This document shows positions 29,125-49,284 of a DNA stretch of 64,000 bases, piece by piece. Each line of letters begins with the position of its first letter. The first letter of the stretch is position 1. The stretch spans positions 480,823 through 544,822 of the forward strand of contig JAXLZV010000001.1 in the NCBI GenBank assembly GCA_046350755.1, given 5' to 3'. This stretch comes from Candidatus Saccharimonadota bacterium. Its GTDB lineage: Bacteria > Patescibacteriota > Saccharimonadia > CAILAD01 > GCA-016700035. The notes beneath the pieces were generated by a model, which had not been told where the DNA came from, did not search any database, and saw nothing but the letters and a program-made list of their open reading frames with translations. The position numbers were made by a program, and so were the translations under genes.

Positions 29125-32100
29125 TTGAATACAGATCAGCGACAACCTATACTTAAGGATAAGCATTTAGTGCGGTCAATACACGTACTTGTGTGGAGGA
29201 GAAATTATTTACGAGTATACGTGCATCACAGATGTACTGTCCGAATCGATGCTATGAATACTGAAAAAGCATCGATTCTTAGGGCTATCCAAAAACAGAT
29301 TCAGGTCGAAAAACGCAAGACCCTTTCCGGACCAACCATGGCCCAAAGAATCTACGTAATATTTGCCCTGATAGTTATAAGTAGTGTAACCCTTGTCTAC
29401 GCTGGGTTTGTGAATGATCGCCATAGTGGCAAAGCGCTTTCAGCTATTTCAACCGGTTCGGCGACAAATATTTCTCAAACCTCTGCCACAGTCAACGGAA
29501 CAGTCTCCCCTCTAGGCGTTGTAGAGAGAGGTTTTGCGTACGGTGCCGACACCAATTATGGCACAAACGTGACGGATACTGGTCCGCTAGCTTACACCTA
29601 TTTAGGTCAATGGGGTTCTACCGGAAATGGAAGTAATCAATTCAGCTCACCAAAAGGTATCACTATCAGTCCGCAGGATTACGTGTATGTCGTAGACCAG
29701 TCAAATAATCGCGTGCAGAAATTTAATGCTAATGGCACCTTTCAACAAGCTTTCGGCACGTATGGCACAGCGGATGGACAATTTAGTGGCCCCACCAGCG
29801 TCACCGCCAATAACAATAGCGATATCTACATCACAGATACTGTCAACCATCGCATCCAAAAGTTTGATAGTAACGGAAACTTCATAACGAAATGGGGTGT
29901 GGCTGGGTCGGGCGATGGAGAGTTTCAATTCCCTGCAGGGCTTGCTAGTGACTCCAGTGGCAATATCTACGTTACAGACACGCTCAATAATCGTATCCAA
30001 AAGTTTGATAGTAATGGCAATTTCATAACGAAATGGGGTGTGGCTGGGTCGGGCGATGGAGAGTTTAGTCAGCCAGTCGACATAGCTGCCGACTCGAATA
30101 ACGATATCTTAGTTAGTGATGGCAGCAATCGTATCCAAAAGTTTGATAGTAATGGCAATTTCATTACGAAATGGGGCTCAACGGGAACAGGTGATGGAGC
30201 ATTTCAATATCCCTATGGGATCAGTACCGATGCGCAAAACAATGTCTATATAGTTGATAGTTATAACAATCGTATCCAAAAGTTTGATAGTAACGGAAAC
30301 TTCATAACGAAATGGGGTGTGGCTGGGTCGGGCGATGGAGCGCTTTCATTCCCGCGAAATTTGGTGGTTCGCCCCACAGATGCAACTGTATACCTAGCCG
30401 ACAGTGGCAATGATCGCGTACAAGTATTTAGCGGCTCAATCACCGCAGAGATACAGGGGCTTAGCTGTGAAACCACCTACCATTACCGAGCCTATGCAAC
30501 AAACGGCATGAGCACCACGTATGGCGAAGATGCAACTTTTACGACCGCTAATTGCGTAACGAACCTCGAAGACCCACAAAATCTCACTGCCAACCCTCGT
30601 GCGAAAAGTGTTGAGCTAGACTGGGGTGATGTATCAGCGGTAGATTATTACAAAATTGAATACAAGCCATCATCTGAAAGCACTTGGCTGACAGCGAACA
30701 ACTCCTATAGCTCTTCAGCTATCATCTCTGGACTCACCTCAGAAACCTCGTATGACTTTCGCATAGCAGCTGCCAGCAATTCACTAAACACTCAAAGTAA
30801 CTGGGTAGCCATAACAACTTCGACAATTGCGCAACAAACATACCATATAACTAATTGTGTCGAGCTGCAGTCAATAGCACTGAATCCATACACATTTGAG
30901 CCAGGCGACATGGCCGGGAAGTATATCCTGGATAATGACATCGATTGCTCAGAATCAGCCTCATGGACATGGGAGGGATTGATACCACCTCAATATCAGG
31001 GCATAATGAGCGGCTTCATCGCCATCATAGATATCTTCAATGGAGGGCCTTTTGTGGGAGATTTTGATGGTCAGGGCCACACGATATCAAACATGCATCA
31101 ACAAGTTGCAACTGGTGGCGGTCTATTTGCTGTCACCTCCGGCTCAGTTCTGCAAGATGTGACTCTCAACAATAGCGATATTAATAATATAGTAGGCGTG
31201 CCCTTTGTTGGTGGGTTTGTCACACGAGCAACTAACTCCACTATCTCCAAGGTAAATGTCACGGGGCTAAACCTAACGAGTATTACCGGTGCCACGGGTG
31301 GCGTAGCGGGTGGCGTAGAAGGCACAACAACTATCACGCAAAGCCGAGCAACGGGATCCATCGATGCCCAAAATAGTGGCACTGGAAACGAGACAGTGAT
31401 ATCGGGAGGACTAGTTGGTGGCGCTGGATTTGGTGCTACCCCGCTTTCAATCACCGAATCCTATGCTGATGTGGATATTAATATAGCAATCACTTCCAAT
31501 GGCAGCAATATAGGCGTTATGGCTGGAGGGCTTACCGGCGGAACGCCACAAGGCTACGCAATAATTAATGACTCCTACTCGATAGGAAGCATTAATATTG
31601 ACGCCACCGATGAAATCACTGGTGGCCTGCTAGTTGGTGGCCTGTCGGGATCCATGGTCACGGTAAGCAATTCATATGCAGCAACGCCGATCACAATACT
31701 GTCGAATGGATTTGGCCAATCGACAGAAATAGCTATCGGCGGATTAATCGGCTTTAATCCCGATGTCAATCTCCAAAATTCTTTTGCCACCGGATCAATT
31801 TCCGTAGATGATAGCCTCTTAAATCCTGGGGGCTTAGTCGGAGTGATCCAAGTAAACCCAGACTATGCGGGAAGCATCAGTATTGCAAACAGTTATTACA
31901 ACCAGGGAGTAAGTGGTGCTGCAACGTGCGTGAACAGATTTTTGAACGATAATGGTAACTCAGATATTACGCCAGCACCAAGTGTCGATTGCGCCGCCGT
32001 CAACACAGGCGGCAGCCAGTCTAATTACTTCATAAATAATCAGTCAAATCCACCGCTTGATGTGTGGAATTTCGATACGATCTGGAAGACTAATACGGCC

Positions 32101-35100
32101 ACACCGCCAACCTTCATAGGAAGTGCCCCGCCAAGCCAAAGTGCCCCGGGCGTACCCCGAAACCTGACAGCCAACAATCCAAGCAATACTACACTCGACA
32201 TCAGCTGGCTGACACCAACTTCAACCGGCAACAGCCCAATTACTGATTATATTATTCAATACAAGTTAACTAGCAGTGGAACCTGGCTGACATTCAATGA
32301 TGGCGTAAATACAAGCCTCGGTGTAACGCTGGCCGGCTTAACAGTCGATAAAAATTATGACATCCGCGTAGCAGCTATTAACGCGGTTGGGCAAGGCCCC
32401 TACACTACGCCGATTACAGCTGGGACACTGAGTCCACCGAGTGCGGTTCAAAACCTGGCTGGGAATGAAACAGGGCCAACTTCGATTGATCTCACTTGGG
32501 ATGCACCATCCTCAGATGGTGGCTCAGCTATCACCGACTACGTCGTGCAGTACAAGCTATCAAGCAATGCCGGATGGACGGCGTTCACTGACGGTATTTC
32601 AAGCTCAACTGGTGCCTCTGTCAGCGGCTTAACGGATAGTACTAATTACGACTTGCGCGTAGCCGCTGTTAATGTAGCCGGCCAAGGCCCCTGGGCAACC
32701 ATAACCAATATACCAACCGGAACCCTCCTCCCGACTGCGCCAAGAAATCTTGTGGCTACACCCTACCAATATACTCACCCGCAAATTGGTCCGACTATCT
32801 ATGCTCTTCCCAACCTAAGTTGGCAGCCCCCAATCACCGGCTCACCTTTCACCGACTACGTCGTCGAATACCGTCTCACGGGAGAAACTAACTGGCGCGA
32901 ATACAGCGACGGCACCTCGGCTAGTAACCAGCTTGATTTTGATTTTGGATTTTCTAATTTTGATTTTCTTGACAGCAATAATAATAGCCCTGAACAGACG
33001 GCTCTCATTGATGAGCTTTTACAAGCGATGATGCTTGGCCAAAGTTATGAGTTTCGCGTAGCAGCAGTCAATAGTAACGGGCAGGGACCATTTAGTGACC
33101 CCGCCAACTTCACCCCTTCATTCACGGCCGATGACTGCTCATTGTTACACTGGGTTCTACAAACCTTAGGGACTGGAAGCCCTAGCGCCAATCTCAATCC
33201 CCACTTCCTTCTCGTGCAAGATATTGATTGCTCCGACACAATTAGCTGGAATAATGGCGCGGGCTGGGAGCCAGTCGGTTCAGATCCTGCATACTTTTTC
33301 ATAGGCCAACTCGATGGCCGAGGTCACAGCGTTAGCAATATGTTTATTGACGATAGCGAGAACCTACCAGTAGGAATGTTTGGAGTCCTCCAGAACGCCC
33401 AAGTATCAAACCTTAATCTCGTCAATAGCTCAGTTAGCGGCCGAATCTATATATACGCAGATGGAGGCGACTCGGGATCGCGGGTTGGCGCCCTAGCCGG
33501 GATCGCCTACTCTAATACTAGTATCTCGAATGTAATCGCCAGTGGCTCAGTTTACTCTGACTGGTCAGGAGGTGGCATTATCGGCTACACACAAGCCTCT
33601 GAGGCTGACGTGACTATCAGTAACACTACCTCGCATGTTAATGTCAGCGCTGCCAAAGAAGGCTTTGGCGGCGGACCTGTCGGCGGCATTATCGGAGACG
33701 TCTATGGTGGCGATAGCTCACTTGGTAGATTCTATGGTGACAAATTTGCTATTGATTCACAAGGTTACACATATGTGGTGGATCCAACCTGGTCGGGCCA
33801 CAAAATACTAAAATTCAACCCCGGAGGTCGGCTCGTACAGTCATGGGGCAATACTGGCAGCGGCGATGACGAGTTTAGTACCTACGGCCCGAGCGAGATC
33901 GTCATCGATTCACAAGATAATCTTTACCTACTTGATAATGGAGTCAAAAAATTTAGCAACAGTGGTCAATTTATAGCTAAATATAATTACTCTGGCAGCA
34001 GCCTCAATATCGATCGTGACGATAACCTTTATTTAACGGGGGCAACTGAGTATTTCTATAATGGCACGCCGCTAGCAATTCAAAAGGTCAGCAGTAGCGG
34101 CAACCTACTAGCATCATTCTTCTCGATGAATGACGTGCCGGGCCACGAAGACGCGCAAATTGGCAAAGTAGCCGTAGCACCCAGCGGCAATATTTATGTT
34201 TCAGAAGTATATAGCGATCTGGTTCGCCGCTACAGTCCATCTGGCAATTTTCTTGGCAGCTTCACAACCTCAAATGGTAATACTTCTGAGATGATTATTG
34301 CTGATGACAATCGTTTATACACAATTAGTAATGGCAATATTTACCAATACGATCTATTGGGCAATCAACAATTATCGATTCCCTACTCAACAGCAGACTA
34401 TCTAGCAACCGATGACCTCAGTAATCTATATGTCTCAAGCTCGTATTCACATAGTGTTACAAAATATGCGTCGGATGGTACCGAGTTGGGTCAACTTGAG
34501 CCCGGCTATGGCCAGGGCCAAGTACTGAGCCCTAGTAAGTTAGTGATTGCCGGCAACACACTACATGTCCGCAGCACGAACACTTATAGCGGCGCGGTTA
34601 TTAAGCACTTCGACAGTAGCTCTCTGGTATATACCGGCAAAGTTGATGGCCTTGATGATGATAACCCCTACAAAACACTAATCGCCAGTAGTGGGGCCGA
34701 TGGAGATCTTGATGCCAAGTGGGTTGGCGGGCTAGTTGGCTATGTGCTGGGCGCCTATATCGACGACCCGCTTGAAACCCCGGGGCTCGTTATTGAAGAT
34801 TCAAGCTCTCAAAACGCGATTAATACAGCCTGCCATTTTGCCGGTGGACTCCTCGGCTCTACAAATGTCGGCACATTAATCACCGGTTCACACGCTCAAG
34901 GCAACATAGCCTGCGAGGGCGGCAGTTTCCTTGATATCTATGACTCATCGTACACGCAGGTTTCAGCTGGCGGTTTAGTGGGTCGTCAAAATGGTACGTC
35001 CCTGTTGCGCATCAATGACTCGTCATTTACTGGCGAAATTGACGCGGCTCCGCATAATTCATTGGCAAACACCGTCAGTGCCGGCGGCTTAGTTGGCTAC

Positions 35101-38100
35101 TCCGAGGTATGGATACCATACATCGACCCCGCAGATCTAGATCCACAAAGCTACCTCGGGACAAAAGGCATTGTAATTAATGGCGGCTCCGTCTCGGCTA
35201 ATGTTCATGCAGCAGTTGGAAAAAGAGGTGGGGGTGGGGGTGGCTTAGCAGGCATCACTGACGTTCTAGCTGTCGACAGCTCTGTCATCCACGGGAGCGT
35301 GTCTGTCGACCAACTCGATTCTCCAAATACTAACGGCACGTCGTATTACGCAGGGGGAGGCGCGGCGACAGCCAAAGTGGCTGATATTCAGTCAACAACA
35401 GCCGACAACACAATCAATCTAACAGCCTCGACCGGAAGAACCTACCTCTACGCTGGTGGCCTACTTGGGATGGGTACCACCTTTCAAGCCTTTGACGCCG
35501 TCGGGCGCTCTGGTAGCATTGCCGTCCGAGGCCGCGCCGATATTCCCAGCCCAAGCGTAGACAGCGCAATTTTTGCTGGCGGCTTAGCTGGCGAAGCTAT
35601 CAGCTACGAAGCGCTCAATGTCACAAATAGCACCTCGGCAAGTAGCATTAGCATTGAAGGTATCAGAGGCGGCAATAATGTCTTATATGGCAACCGCAAT
35701 GGCGCTGCAGGAGGCCTCTTCGGGATCGCCCAAAGTAATACCTCACTTACGGTCAGTAATAGCTCGACTAGTGGCAATATCACCAACTCTTCGGGACTCA
35801 CAAATCCGCCTCCAGAAGCATCGTTCCTCTCAGCTGCATCGCTTGGCGGGCTTATTGGAAGCTTTAGTGGAAGTGTCAATTATTACGCAACCCAAACAGG
35901 AAAACTGAACATTTTTGACTCCCACAGTAGCGCGAATGTGTCGGGTCCTTCCTACTCGCTTGGTGGCGCATATATGAGCTTTAATGGCGGAGCCGGTGGA
36001 TTGGTCGGCTACTTCGCTGCCATGGGTGGCAGCATCGAACGCTCCTTCGCAACTGGTAACGCTACCAGCACAAATGCCGGTGGCTTAATAGGTACCGGCA
36101 TATCGGGCAGCATGGATACTATATTCACCATCAAAAACACCTACGCCACAGGACAGGTCACTGGACAAAGCCTTATAGCTACAGCTGATTTAAATGGACC
36201 CCCTACTAATATTGGCTTCGCCGGTGTAGCTGGTGGTTTGCTGGGCAATTCTTGGGGTATTAATCTAGAAGATTCCTATGCCTCTGGTCAAGTCAGAGCC
36301 TCAGAAGCTGTTGACCAGGTAGGCTTCAATTCCAACACTTCATTCCTTGGGGCCTTTGGCGGTAAAAATGGTGTAGCCGGTGGACTAATTGGCCGCTTCA
36401 CGCAAAACTTCTATGCAGGTAGCCCCCCAAATTTTATCGTTGATAACTCGTATATCACGAATTCCTTTGCAGCCACTACTGTGTCTGGACCGAGCAGTAG
36501 CTACCGGGGAGCAATCGTCGGTGAGTTTATCGACTTTCTAAACCTATACTCTATTTTTACCGATCAGTATACTATCAACCCTGACGACTTCATTACTCCT
36601 GAGATGTCGCTGGTGGGCAACTATTATGACGCGAGTCGCTCACAAGCAACTCCTTGTGGTACCGAGCTTTACATCGCCAGCTACGATCCGCCTGAAACAG
36701 AGGGTGGTATGCCTACAAATATCGTAGACGCACATAGCAATGTTGCGAATTGTACACCCGTCAACAGCGATGGCTTACAGCCAAACTATTTCATCAACAA
36801 CGCAACCAACCCCCCTCTTGATAAATGGAATTTTGTGAGCATATGGAAGACAAACTACAACAATTACCCAGACTTTGTTGGCAGCATCACACCACCACCT
36901 CCTTCAGGCCCCGGAGCTACGACTGGACCCGCTCCAACGACCACACCCACCAATCCACCTAGTGCACCAACAACAACGAGTAATACACCTTCGCCGAGTG
37001 AGTCCACCCTCACGAGTCCTAACGCCTCGGGCAGTGGTAAAGCCGGCCAACAGCAGCCATCAAAAAGCCCCGAATCTAACTTAGGCGCTGGAGACACCGG
37101 CACACTGCTTGATCGGTTGCGACGTAGCATTGGATCCCTCAGTCCAGGTATCCTATATGCCCCTGGGAGCCTCATCATCCTATTGATTGCTTTAGCGATC
37201 TTTTACGCCTACCAAAGCTGGCGAGAGTATCAGCTACAAAAGAAGCTTGAGGACTTATTGAAACGATACCGCGTTACACAGCGACTAAGAAGCGACTTTG
37301 TAAACCTTACGTCCCACTATCTCAATACCCCGGTTCAGATAATGCGCAGTGGTGTCGAGCTGGCGCAAACACAAATACCGGCAATGAGGCCGACGGTTAT
37401 AGCTCTAGCAGCTTCACTAGAGATTATGTCGGAAGATCTAAATCAGCTTCTTCATAGCTCACAAGCTAGTAGCCAAACCTCTCACACTCTTCAGGAGCTT
37501 GATAACCAGGACGTCCGCCATCTATTGAAACGGACTGGCGTATGGCTGCCAATCGTTAGCACTACCCTACTCATGCTAGCATTTGAAATTATATTGTTGA
37601 CGGTGGGTAATATTGGTTTTAATCCTTATACAGTTGGAGTTTTCATCAGCCTGTTGGTTTTTGCCAGCGCGATGGTGGCCTTCACCTACCGGGCTCGGTG
37701 GCGTCTCAAGACATTAACCCAACGATCCAAATCAGCGCTCGACTACGAGCGAGGCCTGGACGCAGAACGCATGCGCTTCATAACGACTGCCGCCCATGAA
37801 CTACAGTCTCACATTGCTGCCTTGCGGATACCGGCCGAACGACTTATCAGCACTGGGAAGGTACCAGCATTTGCGAATGGTCTAGCAATGATGAATCAGA
37901 CAGCCTCGAAACTTGAACAAATCCAAACACTAAGTAACTTACCTGCCGATAACCCCCCGACCGCCATGAAACCGTGGCTAGATAAGCATGTGCCTACCCT
38001 AAAGCAGTTCGCAGAGAGTCAACAGCTCACTTTCTCATCACGGATCGATCCAAACGTGGCAGTCAACCTTGATGTACCGGCTTTAGCGCAATTGGTCAGT

Positions 38101-38412
38101 TCATTAGTTGGGAATGCAGTGAAGTTTACCAAAGCGGGTGGGTCTGTGTCTCTTCAGCTCATGCAGAAAGCCCATACGGTTCAACTCGTCGTGCAGGATA
38201 CGGGGATTGGCATCGAGAAAGATAAACTAGAACAACTCATGCAACCATTCTCACGAGGCACCGATGTGCTGACCTTTGATTATGAAGGAATCGGCTTGTC
38301 TCTCTATATCGATCGCTTGATTGCCGAGCGAATTGGCGGAACCATGCAGATAGCCTCGAAAGTCGGACGAGGAACTATTGTGACGGTAGAGCTACCAGGG
38401 GCTGGAGAGTAG
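29125..38412 (+). CDS. giant (~3,095 aa) cell-surface multidomain protein with NHL beta-propellers, FN3 domains and long GLUG-type repeat arrays, ending in a transmembrane C-terminal histidine kinase (HisKA + HATPase_c)
   Basis: Single uninterrupted ORF. Signal-anchor MAQRIYVIFALIVISSVTLVYAG. At least 6 NHL repeats (NRIQKFDSNGNFITKWG...). FN3 domains with W...Y..Y.V signatures. Two F-x-G-x-[FL]-DG-x-GH-x-[IV]-SNM modules, each followed by long GGL[VIL]G arrays. A degenerate second propeller. A P/T-rich linker (about 36890-37080). TM1 at about 37165-37215, an H-box-like LTSHYLNTPV, a TM2/3 hairpin, then ITTAAHELQSHIAAL plus the N-box LVGNAVKFT, G1 DTGIGI and G2 GIGLSL. The track start is a TTG at 29125; more likely starts are a GTG near 29170 or the ATGs at 29254 and 29338. 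Confidence 0.85.
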   Translation: MNTDQRQPILKDKHLVRSIHVLVWRRNYLRVYVHHRCTVRIDAMNTEKASILRAIQKQIQVEKRKTLSGPTMAQRIYVIFALIVISSVTLVYAGFVNDRHSGKALSAISTGSATNISQTSATVNGTVSPLGVVERGFAYGADTNYGTNVTDTGPLAYTYLGQWGSTGNGSNQFSSPKGITISPQDYVYVVDQSNNRVQKFNANGTFQQAFGTYGTADGQFSGPTSVTANNNSDIYITDTVNHRIQKFDSNGNFITKWGVAGSGDGEFQFPAGLASDSSGNIYVTDTLNNRIQKFDSNGNFITKWGVAGSGDGEFSQPVDIAADSNNDILVSDGSNRIQKFDSNGNFITKWGSTGTGDGAFQYPYGISTDAQNNVYIVDSYNNRIQKFDSNGNFITKWGVAGSGDGALSFPRNLVVRPTDATVYLADSGNDRVQVFSGSITAEIQGLSCETTYHYRAYATNGMSTTYGEDATFTTANCVTNLEDPQNLTANPRAKSVELDWGDVSAVDYYKIEYKPSSESTWLTANNSYSSSAIISGLTSETSYDFRIAAASNSLNTQSNWVAITTSTIAQQTYHITNCVELQSIALNPYTFEPGDMAGKYILDNDIDCSESASWTWEGLIPPQYQGIMSGFIAIIDIFNGGPFVGDFDGQGHTISNMHQQVATGGGLFAVTSGSVLQDVTLNNSDINNIVGVPFVGGFVTRATNSTISKVNVTGLNLTSITGATGGVAGGVEGTTTITQSRATGSIDAQNSGTGNETVISGGLVGGAGFGATPLSITESYADVDINIAITSNGSNIGVMAGGLTGGTPQGYAIINDSYSIGSINIDATDEITGGLLVGGLSGSMVTVSNSYAATPITILSNGFGQSTEIAIGGLIGFNPDVNLQNSFATGSISVDDSLLNPGGLVGVIQVNPDYAGSISIANSYYNQGVSGAATCVNRFLNDNGNSDITPAPSVDCAAVNTGGSQSNYFINNQSNPPLDVWNFDTIWKTNTATPPTFIGSAPPSQSAPGVPRNLTANNPSNTTLDISWLTPTSTGNSPITDYIIQYKLTSSGTWLTFNDGVNTSLGVTLAGLTVDKNYDIRVAAINAVGQGPYTTPITAGTLSPPSAVQNLAGNETGPTSIDLTWDAPSSDGGSAITDYVVQYKLSSNAGWTAFTDGISSSTGASVSGLTDSTNYDLRVAAVNVAGQGPWATITNIPTGTLLPTAPRNLVATPYQYTHPQIGPTIYALPNLSWQPPITGSPFTDYVVEYRLTGETNWREYSDGTSASNQLDFDFGFSNFDFLDSNNNSPEQTALIDELLQAMMLGQSYEFRVAAVNSNGQGPFSDPANFTPSFTADDCSLLHWVLQTLGTGSPSANLNPHFLLVQDIDCSDTISWNNGAGWEPVGSDPAYFFIGQLDGRGHSVSNMFIDDSENLPVGMFGVLQNAQVSNLNLVNSSVSGRIYIYADGGDSGSRVGALAGIAYSNTSISNVIASGSVYSDWSGGGIIGYTQASEADVTISNTTSHVNVSAAKEGFGGGPVGGIIGDVYGGDSSLGRFYGDKFAIDSQGYTYVVDPTWSGHKILKFNPGGRLVQSWGNTGSGDDEFSTYGPSEIVIDSQDNLYLLDNGVKKFSNSGQFIAKYNYSGSSLNIDRDDNLYLTGATEYFYNGTPLAIQKVSSSGNLLASFFSMNDVPGHEDAQIGKVAVAPSGNIYVSEVYSDLVRRYSPSGNFLGSFTTSNGNTSEMIIADDNRLYTISNGNIYQYDLLGNQQLSIPYSTADYLATDDLSNLYVSSSYSHSVTKYASDGTELGQLEPGYGQGQVLSPSKLVIAGNTLHVRSTNTYSGAVIKHFDSSSLVYTGKVDGLDDDNPYKTLIASSGADGDLDAKWVGGLVGYVLGAYIDDPLETPGLVIEDSSSQNAINTACHFAGGLLGSTNVGTLITGSHAQGNIACEGGSFLDIYDSSYTQVSAGGLVGRQNGTSLLRINDSSFTGEIDAAPHNSLANTVSAGGLVGYSEVWIPYIDPADLDPQSYLGTKGIVINGGSVSANVHAAVGKRGGGGGGLAGITDVLAVDSSVIHGSVSVDQLDSPNTNGTSYYAGGGAATAKVADIQSTTADNTINLTASTGRTYLYAGGLLGMGTTFQAFDAVGRSGSIAVRGRADIPSPSVDSAIFAGGLAGEAISYEALNVTNSTSASSISIEGIRGGNNVLYGNRNGAAGGLFGIAQSNTSLTVSNSSTSGNITNSSGLTNPPPEASFLSAASLGGLIGSFSGSVNYYATQTGKLNIFDSHSSANVSGPSYSLGGAYMSFNGGAGGLVGYFAAMGGSIERSFATGNATSTNAGGLIGTGISGSMDTIFTIKNTYATGQVTGQSLIATADLNGPPTNIGFAGVAGGLLGNSWGINLEDSYASGQVRASEAVDQVGFNSNTSFLGAFGGKNGVAGGLIGRFTQNFYAGSPPNFIVDNSYITNSFAATTVSGPSSSYRGAIVGEFIDFLNLYSIFTDQYTINPDDFITPEMSLVGNYYDASRSQATPCGTELYIASYDPPETEGGMPTNIVDAHSNVANCTPVNSDGLQPNYFINNATNPPLDKWNFVSIWKTNYNNYPDFVGSITPPPPSGPGATTGPAPTTTPTNPPSAPTTTSNTPSPSESTLTSPNASGSGKAGQQQPSKSPESNLGAGDTGTLLDRLRRSIGSLSPGILYAPGSLIILLIALAIFYAYQSWREYQLQKKLEDLLKRYRVTQRLRSDFVNLTSHYLNTPVQIMRSGVELAQTQIPAMRPTVIALAASLEIMSEDLNQLLHSSQASSQTSHTLQELDNQDVRHLLKRTGVWLPIVSTTLLMLAFEIILLTVGNIGFNPYTVGVFISLLVFASAMVAFTYRARWRLKTLTQRSKSALDYERGLDAERMRFITTAAHELQSHIAALRIPAERLISTGKVPAFANGLAMMNQTASKLEQIQTLSNLPADNPPTAMKPWLDKHVPTLKQFAESQQLTFSSRIDPNVAVNLDVPALAQLVSSLVGNAVKFTKAGGSVSLQLMQKAHTVQLVVQDTGIGIEKDKLEQLMQPFSRGTDVLTFDYEGIGLSLYIDRLIAERIGGTMQIASKVGRGTIVTVELPGAGE
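29851..30345 (+). repeat. four near-identical ~75-80-bp DNA units at ~140-bp spacing inside the NHL-repeat coding region
   Basis: aatcgtatccaaaagtttgatagtaa[tc]gg[ca]aa[tc]ttcat[at]acgaaatggggtgtggctgggtcgggcgatggag occurs near 29851, 29989, 30127 (shorter match) and 30268. Confidence 0.8.
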
Positions 38413-38431
38413 CTAAGGTGTCGACGACTAG

Positions 38432-39691
38432 CTAGCGCTTGATGTCTATAAAATCTCGGCAAAACCGCTCAAAAATCGCATTCGTCCAGCCGAAGCCGAC
38501 TTGAGTAGGATACACCCCTTTGACCGGTGGCTTACCAGGCTGCACGACGTTGTATTTCTCAATGAAGTTACCATGCTCATTAAACCAGTCGAGATTTGTC
38601 CGTAGCCATTTAATCGCAATGCGGCGCGCCTCCCGCTGATAGCCGTAGCGCTGGAGGCCCTTCACTACCAAAAAATGTAGTGGCGCCCAACCGTTTGGAT
38701 GAGCCCATTGGGTCGGCACCGAGCCGGGCAATTTTGCGATCGCCGGCAGCTCGGTCGTTGCAAGTCCACCCTTATGCTCAAAGCGCCGCAAGTTTTTTAC
38801 TAAATATGCCGCCTGTTCTGTACTCGCCATGCCAGCCCACATTGGATAGTAGCCGGCTAGGGAATTCACCTTTGAACGAGCTTTCTTCACGTAATTATAA
38901 TCAAAATACGTTTTTTGTAAGCGATCCCACATCAACTGATTCATCGTCTGTTTACGATCTTCGGCGATCCGACGCCAGGCTATCTCGCCGTGGCTATCAC
39001 CGAGAATATGCGCCGTCTCGGCAAAATCGACCTCATATTTATACAGCAAAGCGTTCAGATCTACTGGCAAATAATTCAACGCGTGACGACTAAACCGCGT
39101 AGTCATGTCCCAACCGCTCTCAGCTTCGGCTAGGTCATGCAGTACATTGATGTCATAGTAGCGACTTAAGCCGTAGTAGACCCTGCGATCATGCGGCTTA
39201 TGGGTGCCAAGCCAGACAGAATGATATTCCGCTTGGGCCACCTTCATGCTAGTTTTGAGCCAGGTTGATGACATACCGAATGCTCGATACACATCCATAA
39301 TGTAACTCGATAGCAGGGGTGGATGCGACCGCCCCATCAGATAAGTACGACTAGCGTTGGGTATAATATGAAACCGCTCGTACATATGAATGAGGTTCTC
39401 CAGCATACCGAGCACCAAATCCTTGTGCCGAGCATCAAGCAGCCCTTGGGCGATAAAATAGCTATCCCAATAATACTGCTCAGGAAAATCAAACTCTCTG
39501 CCCGGCTCATAGGCTGGTACGATATATGGCTTTGGCAAAGCGATGAGCGTTGACTCTTGCTTTGGATTGAAGCGCGTCAGATGATCCCAGTAGTGGGCGA
39601 TGTGTTGACGAGCGGCGGCGACATCACGCGATGAGAGATTCCCTCCAGGGCGCTGAAAGGCATGAATGAGTTGTCTTGTTCGGCCGAGCAT
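38432..39691 (-). CDS. treA: trehalase (glycoside hydrolase family 37)
   Basis: Trehalase signature 2 QWAHPNGWAPL. A signature-1-like PGREFDFPEQYYWDSYF. 419 aa. Confidence 0.8.
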   Translation of the reverse strand: MLGRTRQLIHAFQRPGGNLSSRDVAAARQHIAHYWDHLTRFNPKQESTLIALPKPYIVPAYEPGREFDFPEQYYWDSYFIAQGLLDARHKDLVLGMLENLIHMYERFHIIPNASRTYLMGRSHPPLLSSYIMDVYRAFGMSSTWLKTSMKVAQAEYHSVWLGTHKPHDRRVYYGLSRYYDINVLHDLAEAESGWDMTTRFSRHALNYLPVDLNALLYKYEVDFAETAHILGDSHGEIAWRRIAEDRKQTMNQLMWDRLQKTYFDYNYVKKARSKVNSLAGYYPMWAGMASTEQAAYLVKNLRRFEHKGGLATTELPAIAKLPGSVPTQWAHPNGWAPLHFLVVKGLQRYGYQREARRIAIKWLRTNLDWFNEHGNFIEKYNVVQPGKPPVKGVYPTQVGFGWTNAIFERFCRDFIDIKR

Positions 39692-39733
39692 AAGCCCATT
39701 ATACTAGCAATCTGAAAGTGTGCTGCCTACCAA

Positions 39734-40384
39734 GTGGCACGTCAATTTGCGATAATGTTACTTAGGCATCATTTAAGCACTTATACGGAGGCTATCATCC
39801 GCTTACCTTTTCGGCGCAAGCCGGCTTCACCAGTCAATCTCTCAGAGCTGGTCAAATACGACCCCACCACCGAGTATCTACGTGACTATCCGACAACTGA
39901 ACGCACTTTCGCCTTTGTCGACGTATCGGAGTTCACAAATTACACACAAAAGTATGGCATCCACGCCGCGGCACAGATGCTGACTAAGTTTCGCGGAGCC
40001 GTTCGAATCGTCGTCGGACGTCACCGGGTGCGAGTCGCCAAATGGCTCGGTGATGGAGTGATGTTGGTTGGTGTACATTCCCAGCCAGTATGTGAAGCCG
40101 TTATGGAGCTCAATGAGCTGTTTCGTGGCGATGAATTTTTCATCCACTCCGGTATCTGCCAGGGATCAGTGATTATTTTTGAAGGTGATGATTATGTCGG
40201 TAGAACGGTCAATATCGCGTCGCGACTGTCTGATCACGCCCGACCGTCCGAAATATGTGTCTACAATCTCAAGTCGACAAATATCCCAAAGAACATGAAG
40301 CTCGAGAAACTCAACGACACAGTCATGATCCGGGGCGTAGGCGAGCTCGAGGGAGTCGCCTCACTCCACTATCGTCGGCGCTAA
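39734..40384 (+). CDS. stand-alone class III nucleotidyl (adenylate/guanylate-type) cyclase catalytic domain
   Basis: FVDVSEFT (metal-binding Asp), KWLGDGVM, IHSGICQGSV and VGRTVNIASRL align to the CHD cyclase motifs. GTG start at 39734, or an ATG at 39755. Confidence 0.7.
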   Translation: MARQFAIMLLRHHLSTYTEAIIRLPFRRKPASPVNLSELVKYDPTTEYLRDYPTTERTFAFVDVSEFTNYTQKYGIHAAAQMLTKFRGAVRIVVGRHRVRVAKWLGDGVMLVGVHSQPVCEAVMELNELFRGDEFFIHSGICQGSVIIFEGDDYVGRTVNIASRLSDHARPSEICVYNLKSTNIPKNMKLEKLNDTVMIRGVGELEGVASLHYRRR

Positions 40385-40422
40385 ATGAATCCTATTTAAG
40401 CGGCTTCTGTCGCAACCTGCCT

Positions 40423-40698
40423 TTAGCTCACAACCCCGTAAAATGATTCAAGTAATTTATAGACGATATAGGCCGGCCAGACGATGGATTTTAGTATGGC
40501 AGTAACTACCGCCCCAAAGCCGGCCGCTGCTTGCAGCCAATACACCAGCGATCCTATGAGCCCGAGACCATAGACCGCCCCGCCAGTGCCATGAGCAGCC
40601 GTATTTTTTTTCGACTCTTGTTTACACCAGTTTTTCCAGTCTTCAGCTCCGGTGATATCAGCCTTGATTTCAATCTTTGGTTCTTGAGATTTTGCCAT
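40423..40698 (-). CDS. small 2-TM membrane protein
   Basis: 91 aa. Charged N-terminus followed by a Gly-rich TM hairpin (GTGGAVYGLGLIGSLVYWL...). Confidence 0.45.
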   Translation of the reverse strand: MAKSQEPKIEIKADITGAEDWKNWCKQESKKNTAAHGTGGAVYGLGLIGSLVYWLQAAAGFGAVVTAILKSIVWPAYIVYKLLESFYGVVS

Positions 40699-40764
40699 GA
40701 GAGTCCTCCACTTTTCTAGCTTTATTATAGACCTATCGACAAGCCCGCAATAATGAAGTGAGCC

Positions 40765-41028
40765 CTATGAAGATTTGTCGCGATGCGGGCAGCCAGCCCA
40801 GCAACACGGTCGCCGCTTGCCCGTCACAAGCTCTTCAGTCACGCGACGTACATGATCAGCTCTGGTCTCAGCCCGCTTTACCGACACAGTCCAACAGATC
40901 CACTCATTGCGCGCGAGCGGCGTGATGTCTTCCCATTCTGCGAGTGCGTCTGGAGAACTAGCGAGAGCCTTACGCAAATCATCAGGTAAGTCGTGTACTA
41001 CGCCGCCGGCAATTGTCGCTGTTTTCAT
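40765..41028 (-). CDS. YdeI/OmpD-associated family protein
   Basis: DLPDDLRKALASSPDALAEWEDITPLARNEWICWTVSVKRAETRADHVRRVTEEL matches the YdeI pattern. Confidence 0.5.
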   Translation of the reverse strand: MKTATIAGGVVHDLPDDLRKALASSPDALAEWEDITPLARNEWICWTVSVKRAETRADHVRRVTEELVTGKRRPCCWAGCPHRDKSS

Positions 41029-41067
41029 AAAAATATTATCTCATAATAACATGTAGATATGGATCTC

Positions 41068-41109
41068 TTGACATTTTTCATTGACAATTAATAGCTTGAC
41101 TGCTAACAT
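41068..41109 (+). promoter_or_regulatory. promoter with tandem TTGACA motifs and a -10 TAACAT
   Basis: TTGACA at 41068 and 41081, TTGACT at 41096, and -10 TAACAT at 41104-41109 spaced 17 nt from the second TTGACA. AAGGAG RBS at about 41129 and ATG at 41141. Confidence 0.5.
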
Positions 41110-41140
41110 CTCCATACCGTACCTCAAAAAGGAGTGTGAA

Positions 41141-41620
41141 ATGGCCAGTCTGGCTATTACCCGTCAAGAAGTCAGCCCGCTCGGCTTCGAGAAAATCGAC
41201 GCCATTCTGGCATTTTGTGAGCCCGCTGTCATTCAGCGGTTTGCTCTCGATCAGCATGTCAGTTACGAGGAGGCAGATGCAGTCTTCCTGGGGCTGATGC
41301 AGTTCTTCGTGGCAAGCTCGTTCATGTCGGGCTACAAAACCCCATCGATGGCCATCGATGACATGTGGCACACCTTCGTGCTGCACATGCGTGAGTATGA
41401 GCGATTCTGCTTCGAGATCATGAACGGCACCGTGTACCACAGTCCGGGAACAGACGACAGTGCGTTCGCGTTCTACCCAGCCACTCGAGCCGTCGCCGCC
41501 GAGCTGTGTGGTGAGCTCAACGAGAGTGTGTGGCCCTCAGAACATGCTCCTCACCCGGAGGCGCGCTGCATTTCCTGCGACTTCACACCAGAAGCTCGGT
41601 TCGCCGCTTTGATGCGGTAG
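41141..41620 (+). CDS. hypothetical cytoplasmic protein
   Basis: Start refined to MASLAITRQ at 41141. The track start is the TTG inside the -35 box. No recognisable family. Confidence 0.45.
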   Translation: MASLAITRQEVSPLGFEKIDAILAFCEPAVIQRFALDQHVSYEEADAVFLGLMQFFVASSFMSGYKTPSMAIDDMWHTFVLHMREYERFCFEIMNGTVYHSPGTDDSAFAFYPATRAVAAELCGELNESVWPSEHAPHPEARCISCDFTPEARFAALMR

Positions 41621-41637
41621 GAGTCCGACATTTTATA

Positions 41638-41676
41638 CCGCAGCCTGATAACCCTTAGGCTGCGGGTTTTATTTCT
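41638..41676 (+). terminator. rho-independent terminator
   Basis: CCGCAGCCTGATAACCCTTAGGCTGCGGG followed by TTTTATTTC. Confidence 0.7.
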
Positions 41677-41799
41677 ACAAAGATAGAAAACATTCATTAT
41701 GAACCTCAATCTCCTCTCAAAAAGCCGGGGCAAGTGGCTATGTCTTCTCCATCTTGTCTCTCCGAACCTCCGGTTCGAGCCTGCTTCACAGGTCAATGC

Positions 41800-41826
41800 A
41801 AAAAGCCGCCACAATGTGACGGCTCT
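41800..41826 (-). terminator. rho-independent terminator of the tRNA-Asn transcript
   Basis: On the minus strand, GCCGTCACattGTGGCGGC followed by TTTTT, directly 3' of the tRNA. Confidence 0.6.
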
Positions 41827-41831
41827 TTGCA

Positions 41832-41906
41832 TGGCTCCGGGGGCCGGATTCGAACCGGCGGCCAATTGGTTAACAGCCAACTGCTCTACCGCTGAGCTAC
41901 CCCGGA
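41832..41906 (-). tRNA. tRNA-Asn (anticodon GUU), CCA encoded
   Basis: Manual fold of the 75-nt sequence gives a 7-bp acceptor stem, U8, D-stem gctc/gagc with an agcggta loop, anticodon stem gttgg/ccaat with loop cuGUUaa, T-arm gccgg-TTCGAAT-ccggc, discriminator G and CCA. Confidence 0.8.
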
Positions 41907-41982
41907 ATACCGCGTAATTATACCTTTTCACCAGATAAGGCGTCAATCGTAGTGCATCGCCCAACGCGGTATACTATACATA

Positions 41983-44184: not shown

Positions 44185-44296
44185 CGTCTCGCCAAGCTGC
44201 TAGGTAGGCATAGTGAAATTGGCCGTGCTTGCACGGGTTAATTACTGTTCGGTAAACTGTTTGGCATTCCCATCCACGACTCACAGGGGGTGAATC

Positions 44297-45496: not shown

Positions 45497-45503
45497 TATT
45501 TCT

Positions 45504-45533
45504 CCCCCGTCAGAAATGGCGGGGTATTTTATT
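45504..45533 (+). terminator. rho-independent terminator
   Basis: CCCCCGTCAGAAATGGCGGGG followed by TATTTTATT. Confidence 0.6.
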
Positions 45534-45599
45534 GCCTGTAGTTTCGCTGCCGAACAAAAACCGGGTATACTAGAGACGAAAAGCATTCCTTTCATATAT

Positions 45600-47366: not shown

Positions 47367-47368
47367 TA

Positions 47369-47848: not shown

Positions 47849-47849
47849 T

Positions 47850-48671: not shown

Positions 48672-48934
48672 TACTTCGCTCTCGCCTCTTTCTTTAGATT
48701 ATGTGGCACCGGATCAAAACCACCAGCCGCCCACGGATGACAGCGGCCAATCCGTCGCGCTGCCAGGGCTGAGCCTTTCAGCGCGCCATGTTTTTCGATG
48801 GCCTCATGAGCGTATTCGCTACAAGTCGGATGATATCGGCAACAGCCGTACGGGTAAAAGACCCTGAATAAACCATGGTCCGGCGATAGCGTCTTCTGGT
48901 AGGCCCGGATAGCGCCCTGTAAAACTCGCTTCAT
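48671..48934 (-). CDS. yidD: membrane protein insertion efficiency factor YidD
   Basis: [11 protein letters not shown] is the YidD signature. Confidence 0.8.
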
Positions 48935-49275: not shown

Positions 49276-49284
49276 GAGTACTAC

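What the first reader, a model, noticed from the sequence alone, without database searches (positions are those of the whole stretch)
29125..38412. One 9.3-kb gene fuses a giant NHL/FN3/GLUG adhesin-like ectodomain to a C-terminal transmembrane histidine kinase
The extracellular part has the architecture of giant surface adhesins and S-layer-like proteins: two NHL beta-propeller regions, at least 5 FN3 domains, and two GLUG-type modules each followed by hundreds of residues of GGL[VI]G beta-helical repeats. It does not end in a sorting signal or simple anchor. After a P/T-rich stalk and a TM helix, the ORF continues into a complete HisKA + HATPase_c kinase with H, N, G1, F and G2 boxes present. 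A roughly 2,600-aa adhesin-like sensor domain on a two-component kinase is far outside the usual range and would couple surface contact or ligand binding directly to signalling. If the host is a reduced-genome epibiont, such a protein could sense host-cell contact.
Basis: partly seen in the sequence, partly recalled or inferred. Interest (0 to 1): 0.88.

Follow-up and report, generated by a model that had tools for sequence, protein, structure and literature searches.

The report
Giant surface-protein histidine kinase of Saccharibacteria
A tiny parasitic-type bacterium (Saccharibacteria) encodes one intact 3,052-residue protein that joins a huge adhesin-like outer part to an unusual membrane histidine kinase, and it belongs to a large, apparently undescribed family that could let such cells sense what their surface touches.

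Summary
Window 29125-38412 (+) is one uninterrupted ORF. The annotated start is ATG 29254, giving 3,052 aa, identical to NCBI MFO0955449.1 from a Candidatus Saccharibacteria MAG. The adhesin/kinase junction is not an artefact: three independent assemblies match it at 99.98-100% identity with no gaps.

Order of parts: signal peptide, NHL propeller, FN3, GLUG module, three FN3, a second GLUG module with an inserted NHL-like propeller, P/T stalk, then a roughly 430-aa kinase module.

It has three TM helices and two TM-DHp units that look like a tandem duplication (hhalign probability 95%). The family-conserved histidine (H2688, motif HYLNTP, 149/151 sequences) lies between TM1 and TM2. The DHp next to the ATP-binding domain has lost its histidine in 149/151 members; the window protein happens to keep one there.

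A profile of this module finds 409 protein clusters (E<=1e-10). Most are 1,000-4,400 aa, with varied ectodomains and the module always C-terminal. Those that carry names are from Saccharibacteria or Patescibacteria. No response regulator lies nearby.

I found no description of the family. The sensing function is inferred, not shown.

The parts
29254..38412 (+). Coding sequence of the giant kinase (3,052 aa plus stop). The maximal ORF begins at TTG 29125. ATG 29338 is an alternative start.
   Evidence: The product is identical to P0121 / NCBI MFO0955449.1. The DNA is confirmed by independent assemblies L006-L009.
29356..29412 (+). N-terminal hydrophobic segment (residues 35-53, VIFALIVISSVTLVYAGFV). 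Probably a Sec signal peptide or signal anchor.
   Evidence: Kyte-Doolittle score 2.49. An N-terminal hydrophobic segment occurs in most family members. Cleavage is inferred, not tested.
29641..30438 (+). NHL beta-propeller 1: six blades, residues 130-395.
   Evidence: Pfam NHL E 2.5e-39. Six self-profile blades.
30574..30777 (+). FN3 domain 1 (residues 441-508).
   Evidence: Pfam fn3 E 3.7e-11 on this segment. Self-profile iE 1.5e-27.
30841..32139 (+). GLUG-type module 1 (residues 530-962): N-cap with DIDCS...FDGQGHTISN, GGLxG rungs, and C-cap NYFINNQSNPPLDVWNF.
   Evidence: Pfam Glug 19.9 bits (cutoff 20.5) and a weak Peptidase_M26_N match. The caps are repeated in module 2. The AlphaFold2 model is all-beta but low confidence, pLDDT 48.
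32155..33102 (+). Three FN3 domains (residues 968-1055, 1066-1149, 1187-1283). The third is interrupted by an insert.
   Evidence: Pfam fn3 E 1.1e-46 overall. Self-profile hits.
33190..33420 (+). GLUG-type module 2, N-cap (residues 1313-1389).
   Evidence: Self-profile match to the N-cap of module 1, iE 2.5e-28. Weak Glug and Peptidase_M26_N matches.
33745..34482 (+). Divergent NHL-like beta-propeller 2 (residues 1498-1743, at least 5 blades), inserted in GLUG module 2.
   Evidence: Pfam NHL 20.8 bits against cutoff 20. Self-profile blades with iE 1e-10 to 1e-16.
34696..36894 (+). Long GGLxG repeat region (putative beta-solenoid, residues 1815-2490) and C-cap (2497-2547, NYFINNATNPPLDKWNF).
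   Evidence: 13 GGLxG motifs spaced about 28-72 residues apart. C-cap matches module 1 at iE 4.5e-34. Weak Glug match. The fold is not confirmed.
36895..37128 (+). Pro/Thr/Ser-rich stalk (residues 2548-2625).
   Evidence: More than 60% P+T+S in 40-residue windows starting at residues 2541-2561, i.e. residues ~2541-2600; the rest of the stretch to TM1 was not above the threshold. The homologues also have a P-rich linker at this position.
37147..37218 (+). TM1 (residues 2632-2655), oriented outside to inside.
   Evidence: Hydropathy 2.38. AlphaFold2 predicts one continuous helix from TM1 into DHp1. The following segment is rich in positive charges (sequence).
37219..37488 (+). DHp1: a HisKA-like helical hairpin carrying the family-conserved histidine H2688 (codon 37315-37317) in the motif S-H-Y-L-N-T-P.
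   Evidence: Weak Pfam HisKA match, E 0.0036. Across 151 sequences: His 149, Tyr 142, Thr 142, Pro 148.
37552..37686 (+). TM2 (residues 2767-2785) and TM3 (2793-2811), a membrane hairpin with a 7-residue outer loop.
   Evidence: Hydropathy 2.14 and 2.17. AlphaFold2 helices 159-185 and 189-264 of the 450-aa model. Three C-terminal TM helices is the commonest pattern in the family.
37687..37953 (+). DHp2: a second helical hairpin, adjacent to the catalytic domain. The histidine position (H2848, AAHELQ, codon 37795-37797) is degenerate across the family.
   Evidence: Aligns in register with TM1-DHp1: hhalign probability 94.9%, E 4.3e-8. The histidine column holds His in only 2/151 sequences. The AlphaFold2 model of the C-terminal 450 aa matches HK853 and ZraS over ~230-245 columns by Foldseek; that these columns are DHp2+CA is inferred from the aligned length and from the NCBIfam kinase models, which align to residues 2833-3048.
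38071..38397 (+). HATPase_c catalytic domain (residues 2940-3048) with N box (38110-38130), G1 (38197-38214), F (38239-38259) and G2 (38287-38304).
   Evidence: Pfam E 6e-21. Box positions and family conservation: Asn 148/151, G1 Asp 137, G2 Gly 143 and 145.

Best explanation
This is a real, intact gene of a Candidatus Saccharibacteria bacterium.

Architecture and topology. A Sec-type N-terminal signal exports a ~2,570-residue modular ectodomain: NHL propeller, FN3, GLUG-type repeat module, three FN3, and a second GLUG module with an inserted NHL-like propeller. A Pro/Thr stalk holds this away from the membrane. The C-terminal ~430 residues are a conserved kinase module with the order TM1 - DHp1 - TM2 - TM3 - DHp2 - HATPase_c. 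DHp1 carries the invariant histidine in an H-Y-L-N-T-P motif. DHp2 has lost its histidine across the family. The module appears to have arisen by tandem duplication of a TM-DHp unit. With this topology both helical hairpins and the ATP-binding domain lie in the cytoplasm.

Family. The protein is one of the largest members of a widespread family, so far named only from Saccharibacteria and Patescibacteria. In this family the same kinase module is attached to interchangeable surface domains: FN3, NHL, DUF285, Big_7/Ig, GLUG.

Inferred mechanism.
1. The ectodomain binds a ligand outside the cell, most plausibly a glycan or protein on a host or neighbouring cell surface.
2. The resulting displacement or tension passes through TM1, which is continuous with the histidine-bearing helix.
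3. The ATP-binding domain is tethered by DHp2 at the same depth below the membrane (33 versus 37 residues from the TM end). It phosphorylates H2688 on the neighbouring DHp1, either inside one chain (a pseudo-dimeric four-helix bundle) or in a dimer.
4. The phosphoryl group then goes to a response regulator encoded elsewhere.

Shown: gene integrity, domain content, topology pattern, family conservation, the duplication signal, and conserved catalytic motifs. Inferred: the ligand, signal direction, which histidine is used, oligomeric state, and the partner.
For: - Integrity. One ORF. The junction is identical in three independent assemblies. The product equals NCBI MFO0955449.1.
- Domains..
- Topology. 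Four hydrophobic segments with charge distribution consistent with ectodomain outside and kinase inside. The same pattern (N-terminal signal plus three C-terminal TM helices) is the commonest in the family.
- Family. A profile of TM1-DHp1-TM2-TM3-DHp2, without the catalytic domain, finds 649, 409 and 75 clusters at E<=1e-3, 1e-10 and 1e-30. The top 150 all match essentially the whole profile, ending about 150-180 residues before the C-terminus (i.e. just before the catalytic domain; the module as a whole is C-terminal). Lengths run from about 600 to 4,413 aa.
- Intact relatives. 1,958 aa in L004; 3,106 aa seen on 7 contigs; 2,281 aa in an NCBI and a Logan assembly.
- Ectodomains vary: fn3 13/22, NHL 8/22, DUF285 4/22, Big_7 4/22; HATPase_c 21/22.
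- Conservation. DHp1 His 149/151, the DHp2 position 2/151, N/G1/F/G2 boxes conserved.
- Duplication. hhalign probability 94.9%, E 4.3e-8, with TM helix and hairpin in register.
- Structure. The AlphaFold2 model (pLDDT 73) shows TM1 continuous with DHp1 helix 1 and TM3 continuous with DHp2 helix 1. Foldseek matches about 230-245 columns of the C-terminal model to HK853, ZraS and WalK at E about 1e-11; the NCBIfam kinase models place the canonical DHp+CA region at residues 2833-3048.
- Taxonomy. Saccharibacteria or Patescibacteria wherever a name exists.
Against: - No response regulator (REC domain) was found in the 64-kb window or in the flanks held for five related loci, which reach up to 10 kb but are much shorter on some sides because the contigs end. 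A phosphorelay partner is therefore assumed, not seen.
- The residue after the conserved histidine is Tyr (142/151), not the Glu/Asp that HisKA kinases use in autophosphorylation (the role of the acidic residue is from my own knowledge of HK853 and EnvZ). The catalytic chemistry may differ, or DHp1 may act mainly as a phosphatase or phosphotransfer site.
- Pfam HisKA is below its gathering score.
- The relative packing of DHp1, DHp2 and the catalytic domain could not be inspected, because the tool returns no coordinates.
- The beta-solenoid fold of the GLUG modules is unconfirmed (pLDDT 48).
- No ligand information of any kind exists.
- Copies in two related genomes are interrupted by frameshifts. 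These could be sequencing errors, but could also mean the genes decay readily.
Confidence: 0.6

Rival explanations
1. This is a canonical homodimeric HisKA kinase. DHp2 next to the catalytic domain is the working phospho-acceptor domain, using H2848 in 'AAHELQ'. DHp1 is only a signal-transmitting coiled coil, a stand-in for a HAMP or S-helix.
For: The window protein has His-Glu-Leu at the canonical position. NCBIfam kinase models (PhoR, PnpS, BaeS) align across 2833-3048. Foldseek finds ~230-245-column matches of the C-terminal model to HK853 and ZraS, consistent with a canonical DHp+CA core.
Against: Only 2 of 151 family members have His at that column; the rest have E, K, A, Q, S and others. 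The DHp1 motif H-Y-L-[NR]-T-P is nearly invariant. Selection across the family therefore acts on DHp1, not DHp2.
Confidence: 0.12
2. This is an adhesin whose kinase-derived tail is only a membrane anchor or scaffold (a pseudokinase). The protein holds the cell to a surface and does not run a phosphorelay.
For: No response regulator lies nearby in any locus examined. The H+1 residue is Tyr rather than an acid. Pfam HisKA is below threshold. Several related copies are frameshifted within or just before the kinase part.
Against: All ATP-binding boxes (N, G1, F, G2) and the DHp1 histidine are conserved in about 90-99% of 151 diverged sequences. A mere anchor would not be expected to keep them. A single TM helix would suffice to anchor the protein.
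Confidence: 0.12
3. This is a genuine sensor kinase, but the ectodomain senses soluble or polymeric nutrients (for example free glycans), as Bacteroides hybrid two-component sensors do, rather than contact with a host cell.
For: Beta-propeller plus Ig-like ectodomains on kinases are known glycan sensors in Bacteroidetes (PMC3243724). Y_Y_Y hits occur in 3/22 family members. The neighbouring genes are glycoside hydrolases: trehalase and a GH5/GH42-like protein.
Against: The ectodomain is several times larger than any such sensor. It is built of adhesin-type modules on a P/T stalk. The variable, paralogous ectodomains resemble surface-recognition repertoires. None of this is decisive.
Confidence: 0.15
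4. This is an artefact: two genes (adhesin and kinase) joined by an assembly error or a sequencing frameshift.
For: Related loci in CP064998.1 and CAYSMD010000013.1 show the architecture split into several ORFs.
Against: Three independent assemblies reproduce window 33894-38412 (one of them from 30311) with 0 gaps. Intact fused ORFs of 1,958, 2,281 and 3,106 aa exist in other genomes. In CP064998.1 the 2,445-aa ORF itself runs from the ectodomain through TM1-DHp2, and its break lies inside the catalytic domain, not at the junction. Dozens of top profile hits are more than 1,000 aa with the module at the C-terminus.
Confidence: 0.01

Closest known systems
Class I (HisKA-type) transmembrane sensor histidine kinases, e.g. 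HK853, EnvZ, PhoR, WalK
   Same: A HATPase_c domain with N, G1, F and G2 boxes. The modelled DHp+CA core matches HK853, ZraS and WalK by Foldseek. An H-x-x-x-T-P style H-box. An extracytoplasmic input domain, TM helices and a cytoplasmic kinase.
   Different: - The conserved histidine is on a separate DHp hairpin, separated from the catalytic domain by a two-helix membrane hairpin and a second, histidine-less DHp.
- H+1 is Tyr, not Glu/Asp.
- There is no HAMP or PAS domain.
- The ectodomain is about 2,570 aa rather than about 150-300.
- No adjacent response regulator.
- Pfam HisKA is below threshold.
Bacteroidetes hybrid two-component systems (HTCS) with periplasmic beta-propeller + Y_Y_Y sensor domains
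   Same: A kinase whose extracytoplasmic sensor is built of beta-propellers and Ig/FN3-like domains (PMC3243724, and my own knowledge of BT4663). Some family members hit Y_Y_Y.
   Different: HTCS use Reg_prop propellers, have about 700-aa sensors, and carry REC + AraC output domains in the same chain. This protein has NHL propellers and GLUG modules, no REC or HTH, a duplicated TM-DHp, and comes from a different phylum.
CheA (class II kinases) and the monomeric kinase EL346
   Same: Functional analogy only. In CheA the phospho-acceptor histidine is on a domain separate from the histidine-less dimerisation bundle that sits beside the catalytic domain. EL346 shows that a kinase can work with an intramolecular DHp-like bundle (my own knowledge; 'monomeric histidine kinase' literature is listed).
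   Different: Here the histidine-bearing unit is HisKA-like, not an HPt domain. Both units are membrane-tethered. No homology to P1/P3 was found. The oligomeric state is unknown.
GLUG-motif / Peptidase_M26 N-terminal beta-helix surface proteins (e.g. streptococcal IgA1 protease N-terminal domain) and NHL/FN3 giant surface proteins of Patescibacteria
   Same: Weak Glug and Peptidase_M26_N matches. The IgA1 protease N-terminal part is described as a beta-helix (PMC7695701). FN3/Ig-type adhesin candidates are needed for epibiotic growth of Saccharibacteria (PMC10633639).
   Different: No protease domain and no LPXTG. The scores are below Pfam cutoffs. The protein ends in a kinase rather than a wall anchor.

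Membership tests
Histidine kinase (HisKA-type, class I) | HATPase_c catalytic domain with N, G1, F and G2 boxes | tested here: met
   Pfam PF02518 E 6e-21, 75 bits against cutoff 26.4. Boxes located and conserved across 151 relatives.
Histidine kinase (HisKA-type, class I) | HisKA/DHp domain above the Pfam gathering score, lying directly N-terminal to the catalytic domain and carrying the phospho-acceptor histidine | tested here: not met
   PF00512 scores 17.8 bits, below the cutoff of 26.9, and maps to 2679-2736, between TM1 and TM2. The hairpin beside the catalytic domain has His in only 2/151 sequences. The close relatives P0001-P0005 have no precomputed HisKA hit, whereas nearly all of the other kinases listed do.
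Histidine kinase (HisKA-type, class I) | Acidic residue (Glu/Asp) immediately after the phospho-acceptor histidine | tested here: not met
   H+1 is Tyr in 142/151 sequences.
Histidine kinase (HisKA-type, class I) | DHp + CA fold | tested here: met
   AlphaFold2 model pLDDT 73. Foldseek against PDB: HK853, ZraS, WalK and KinB at E 1e-10 to 1e-12, probability 1.00.
Histidine kinase (HisKA-type, class I) | Autophosphorylation on histidine and transfer to a receiver domain | not testable with these tools
   Requires biochemistry.
Two-component system (operon-encoded pair) | Cognate response regulator encoded next to the kinase | tested here: not met
   phmmer with the CheY and PhoB receiver domains finds nothing in any ORF of at least 60 aa in the window, L001, L002 or L004. 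No Response_reg among the called genes of L010-L013.
Bacteroidetes hybrid two-component system (HTCS) | Reg_prop propellers + Y_Y_Y sensor, and C-terminal REC + HTH_AraC in the same chain | tested here: not met
   The Pfam scan of the window protein lists none of these. The chain ends 4 residues after HATPase_c.
GLUG-motif / M26 IgA1-protease-type surface proteins | Glug motif above the Pfam cutoff; M26 catalytic domain; cell-wall sorting signal | tested here: not met
   Glug 19.9 bits against 20.5, and Peptidase_M26_N 24.7 against 27.7 (C-terminal part of the model only). No catalytic domain. No LPXTG. No PDB relative by sequence.
NHL-repeat beta-propeller proteins | Six NHL blades | tested here: met
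   PF01436 E 2.5e-39. Six blades at 130-395. The second propeller is marginal, 20.8 bits against a cutoff of 20.
Patescibacterial 'giant-ectodomain kinase' family defined here (TM-DHp(His)-TM-TM-DHp'-CA at the C-terminus) | Full-length match to the module profile, an H-Y-L-[NR]-T-P motif about 365 residues from the C-terminus, and three C-terminal TM helices | tested here: met
   The window protein is the top hit (P0121, E 6.7e-133, profile positions 2-288). The motif is at 2688, 365 residues from the end. Three C-terminal TM helices.

The most novel reading that the evidence does not exclude
Saccharibacteria and other Patescibacteria carry a lineage-specific class of single-chain 'pseudo-dimeric' histidine kinases. 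A tandem TM-DHp duplication would let one polypeptide build the four-helix phosphorylation bundle that normally needs two subunits. One unit keeps the histidine and the other holds the catalytic domain. This module has been coupled repeatedly to giant, interchangeable adhesin ectodomains. Each paralogue would then work as a contact or tension receptor for a different host-surface structure, reporting to a shared, unlinked stand-alone receiver protein. That would be a bacterial counterpart of adhesion receptors with intrinsic kinase activity, and a direct molecular handle on how epibionts recognise hosts.
Probability: 0.25. Interest if true: 0.88.

Novelty: new variant of a known kind. Interest (0 to 1): 0.72.

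Why it matters
How ultra-small epibiotic bacteria (Saccharibacteria and other CPR/Patescibacteria) recognise and respond to host cells is largely unknown. Tn-seq work shows that adhesins are required for epibiotic growth (PMC10633639), but I found no sensing pathway tied to them.

A family of hundreds of proteins that hard-wire adhesin-type ectodomains to a kinase gives concrete, testable candidates for host-contact receptors.

For two-component signalling, the module is a natural experiment. The phospho-acceptor hairpin and the catalytic domain are separated by a membrane hairpin and a degenerate second DHp. This bears on cis/trans autophosphorylation and on whether dimerisation is obligatory.

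For annotation, these proteins are currently labelled 'fibronectin type III domain-containing protein', '6-bladed beta-propeller', 'hypothetical protein' or 'uncharacterized repeat protein' by NCBI and in some JGI records, although other JGI records do call family members 'signal transduction histidine kinase'. No Pfam or NCBIfam model captures the module.

Tried and rejected
- Exact look-up of the whole protein from either start found no encoding contig. The neighbouring trehalase gene did, once I corrected a coordinate slip made.
- The metagenome-contig scan with the [ND][LI][ATS]SHYLNT pattern gave no confirmed relative.
- The genome-contig scan gave only two Saccharibacteria loci plus a generic cyanobacterial kinase, L005, which I disregarded.
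- The word-indexed protein searches with the GLUG module and with the module profile returned only 1 and 5 hits. They added little. I could not establish whether cultivated strains (TM7x, Southlakia) carry a family member.
- The Southlakia supplementary tables list only small HAMP/PAS kinases and stand-alone receivers. The FN3-type essential protein SEML1_0890 is 588 bp and not a kinase.
- A PDB sequence search with GLUG module 1 found nothing.
- AlphaFold2 of GLUG module 1 with a 2-sequence alignment gave pLDDT 48. It was not used for a fold search, so the beta-helix claim stays unconfirmed.
- I could not submit L001/L002 translations for structure prediction.
- I could not inspect model coordinates, so the intramolecular-bundle idea is untested.
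- Literature searches for Saccharibacteria or Patescibacteria combined with histidine kinase, giant, surface protein or NHL found nothing relevant.
- I considered inferring 'many kinases to one regulator' from conservation of helix-1 specificity positions. I dropped it because those positions (H+6, H+7, H+10 to H+13) are variable.
- The assembly-artefact hypothesis is rejected.


Full report

Window 29125-38412 (+) is the longest ORF in the window: 3,095 codons from the first in-frame TTG. With a stop-codon probability of 0.049 per codon at this composition, an open frame of that length has a chance of about 1e-67. GC content (0.46-0.50) is close to the rest of the window.

The product starting at ATG 29254 (3,052 aa) is identical to a protein in the public collection, P0121 = NCBI MFO0955449.1. 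That record is named 'MAG: fibronectin type III domain-containing protein [Candidatus Saccharibacteria ...]' and sits on a 643,864-bp contig.

**2. Is the adhesin-kinase junction an artefact?**

No. The downstream trehalase gene let me pull in independent assemblies:
- an NCBI MAG contig (GCA_041910195.1, L006);
- Logan per-run assemblies of SRR26348422 (L007), SRR32315881 (L008) and SRR32315882 (L009).

They align to the window at 99.98-100% identity with zero gaps. L007 spans 30311-41901, L008 spans 33894-41861 and L006 spans 35245-49691.

**3. Anatomy of the ectodomain** (residue numbers from ATG 29254)

| Residues | Feature | Evidence |
|---|---|---|
| 35-53 | Hydrophobic signal or anchor | |
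| 130-395 | Six NHL blades | Pfam NHL E 2.5e-39; blades, |
| 441-508 | FN3 | |
| 530-962 | GLUG-type module 1, with an N-cap and the C-cap NYFINNQSNPPLDVWNF | |
| 968-1283 | Three FN3 domains, the last split by an insert | |
| 1313-1389 | N-cap of GLUG-type module 2 | |
| 1498-1743 | Divergent NHL-like propeller inserted in module 2 | Pfam NHL 20.8 against cutoff 20; self-profile blades at 1e-10 to 1e-16, |
| 1815-2490 | GGLxG repeats | |
| 2497-2547 | Matching C-cap | |
| 2548-2625 | Pro/Thr/Ser-rich stalk | |

Glug and Peptidase_M26_N matches are real but fall just below the Pfam cutoffs. An AlphaFold2 model of module 1 is all-beta but unreliable (pLDDT 48), so 'beta-helix' remains an inference. 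There is no LPXTG or PEP-CTERM signal. A fifth FN3-like fold around the first propeller is only marginal.

**4. Anatomy of the kinase end**

There are three C-terminal TM helices: 2632-2655, 2767-2785 and 2793-2811.

Between TM1 and TM2 lies a HisKA-like hairpin, DHp1, with the sequence SDFVNLTSHYLNTPVQIM. This is the only place Pfam HisKA matches, and it does so weakly (E 0.0036, 17.8 bits against a cutoff of 26.9). After TM3 comes a second hairpin, DHp2, with ...FITTAAHELQSH..., followed by HATPase_c (2940-3048, E 6e-21) with N, G1, F and G2 boxes.

The charge distribution puts DHp1, DHp2 and the catalytic domain in the cytoplasm and the 2,570-aa part outside.

AlphaFold2 (pLDDT 73) predicts TM1 as one continuous helix with DHp1 helix 1, and TM3 as continuous with DHp2 helix 1. 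Foldseek matches about 230-245 columns of this model to HK853, ZraS, WalK and KinB (E about 1e-11). I take these to be DHp2 plus the catalytic domain, because NCBIfam kinase models align to residues 2833-3048.

**5. Relatives**

A word-indexed search with the last 550 aa found only five close relatives, all lacking a precomputed HisKA hit, followed by generic kinases. Their loci show the same design.
- In CP064998.1 (916 kb), a 2,445-aa DUF285/NHL/FN3 ORF runs straight through TM1-DHp1-TM2-TM3-DHp2 and breaks by frameshift only inside the catalytic domain. A second copy in the same genome is split into 1,664 + 219 + 594 aa.
- In CAYSMD010000013.1, a 595 + 2,190 + 407 aa series has its break just after a C5 run in the linker.
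- CAZTPC010000023.1 has an intact 1,958-aa ORF with a Big_7/Ig ectodomain and the same module.

An exhaustive HMM search used a profile of only TM1-DHp1-TM2-TM3-DHp2, with the catalytic domain excluded to avoid generic kinases. Against 1.84 billion representatives it returned 649, 409 and 75 clusters at E<=1e-3, 1e-10 and 1e-30. All of the top 150 match essentially the whole profile. The profile match ends about 150-180 residues before the C-terminus, that is, just before the catalytic domain.

Of the 147 new hits, 82 exceed 1,000 aa and 37 exceed 2,000 aa. The window protein is the third longest, after 4,413 and 3,106 aa. The shortest complete members (about 600-640 aa, on 12-23 kb contigs) have a signal peptide, one Ig-like domain, a P-rich linker and the module.

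Ectodomains are interchangeable: fn3 13/22, NHL 8/22, DUF285 4/22, Big_7 4/22, Glug 2/22; HATPase_c 21/22. Intact 3,106-aa and 2,281-aa members recur on several independent contigs. One 699-kb genome carries at least two paralogues. Every member that carries a taxon name is Candidatus Saccharibacteria or 'Patescibacteria group'.

**6. Which histidine?**

In an alignment of 151 C-termini:
- The DHp1 histidine (H2688) is present in 149. It sits in H-Y-L-[N/R]-T-P, with Tyr 142, Thr 142 and Pro 148.
- The column of H2848 in DHp2 holds E, K, A, Q, S and others, and His in only 2 sequences. The window protein is one of those two.
- The ATP-binding boxes are conserved at about 90-98%.

Profile-profile comparison of the unit TM1+DHp1 with the unit TM3+DHp2 gives probability 94.9% and E 4.3e-8 over 89 columns in register, TM on TM and H-box on ex-H-box. 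I read this as a tandem duplication of a TM-DHp unit, after which only the first copy kept the acceptor histidine and only the second kept the catalytic domain. The two histidine positions lie at similar depth below the membrane: 33 and 37 residues after the TM ends.

**7. Mechanism (inferred)**

The ectodomain is displayed on a P/T stalk and binds something outside the cell. TM1 couples it rigidly to the histidine-bearing helix. The catalytic domain hangs from DHp2 beside DHp1 and phosphorylates H2688, either within one chain (a pseudo-dimeric four-helix bundle, by analogy with the monomeric kinase EL346) or across a dimer. The phosphoryl group then goes to a receiver encoded elsewhere.

No receiver domain occurs in the 64-kb window or in the flanks held for five relatives, which reach up to 10 kb but are shorter where contigs end. 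Stand-alone receiver proteins do exist in a cultivated Saccharibacterium (supplementary gene table of PMC10633639).

The Tyr at H+1, where HisKA kinases have Glu/Asp, is a caveat for ordinary autokinase chemistry. The ligand is unknown. Two readings are open:
- Host-surface contact fits the adhesin-like, paralogous, variable ectodomains and the epibiotic lifestyle, in which adhesins are essential (PMC10633639).
- Glycan sensing, as in Bacteroides hybrid two-component sensors (PMC3243724), is the main alternative. The glycoside hydrolase genes next door hint at it.

**8. Comparison with known systems**

It works like a class I sensor kinase and has the fold. It fails three canonical membership features: HisKA at threshold beside the catalytic domain, an acidic H+1 residue, and an adjacent regulator. 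It is not an HTCS, since it has no Reg_prop/Y_Y_Y sensor in this protein and no REC or AraC domain. The separation of the histidine-bearing unit from a histidine-less bundle next to the catalytic domain is functionally reminiscent of CheA, but there is no homology to HPt.

No Pfam or NCBIfam family captures the module; all NCBIfam hits are far below their cutoffs. Full-text searches found no description of it.

**9. Verdict**

The protein is a representative, and one of the largest members, of a widespread and apparently undescribed patescibacterial family of giant-ectodomain orphan histidine kinases with a duplicated TM-DHp core. I rate it a new variant of a known kind, with interest 0.72. 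The function is inferred only.

Noticed in passing
window 49563-50981 (+) and surroundings, about 47.3-51 kb: dnaA is here (Pfam Bac_DnaA E 3.5e-64). By identity with the annotated contig L006, rpmH-rnpA-yidD-yidC lie next to it on the opposite strand. Cumulative GC skew reaches its minimum around 50-52 kb. The window therefore probably contains the chromosomal replication origin, about 11 kb from the giant gene.
   Followed up: partly
window 53762-63363 (-): A type IV secretion-like cluster: a VirB4/TraG-type P-loop ATPase (60461-62386), an M23 peptidase + SLT transglycosylase (55094-56986), and proteins of 1,156 aa (56987-60457) and 442 aa with no Pfam match. A T4SS is reported as essential for epibiotic growth in Saccharibacteria (PMC10633639).
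   Followed up: partly
L001 (CP064998.1) 1-1596 and 4226-11785; L002 (CAYSMD010000013.1) 1574-11110: Paralogues or orthologues of the giant kinase in two other Saccharibacteria genomes are split by frameshifts. In L002 the shift follows a C5 run at about 9765-9769 in the linker. In L001 a small insertion at about 1250-1262 cuts off the last 110 aa of the catalytic domain. These could be sequencing errors, pseudogenes or slipped-strand switches.
   Followed up: partly
window 37795-37797 (H2848): The window protein is one of only 2 of 151 family members with a histidine (followed by Glu-Leu) at the canonical H-box position of the degenerate DHp2. It therefore uniquely carries two candidate phospho-acceptor sites. 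This could be chance or a lineage-specific reversion.
   Followed up: partly
window 38432-39691 (-), 39734-40384 (+), 41983-43026 (+): Immediately downstream lie a trehalase (E 1.9e-87), a small protein with a weak partial adenylate/guanylate cyclase match, and a GH5/GH42-like glycosidase. Upstream are a pirin and two small proteins with no Pfam match. None is a two-component partner.
   Followed up: no
L010 6770-8251 (relative's locus): In the genome carrying the 3,106-aa family member, a conventional HAMP-HisKA-HATPase_c kinase sits 1.7 kb upstream, next to an SBP_bac_5 solute-binding protein. It also has no adjacent response regulator. Orphan kinases may be the rule in these genomes.
   Followed up: no
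window 29431-29628 and 30427-30558 (residues about 60-125 and 392-435): The first NHL propeller appears to be inserted into an FN3/Ig-like domain whose two halves flank it (N-terminal half 'SATNISQTSATVNGTV...RGFAYG', C-terminal half 'TTYHYRAYATNG...ATFTT'). Only a marginal self-profile hit supports this.
   Followed up: no
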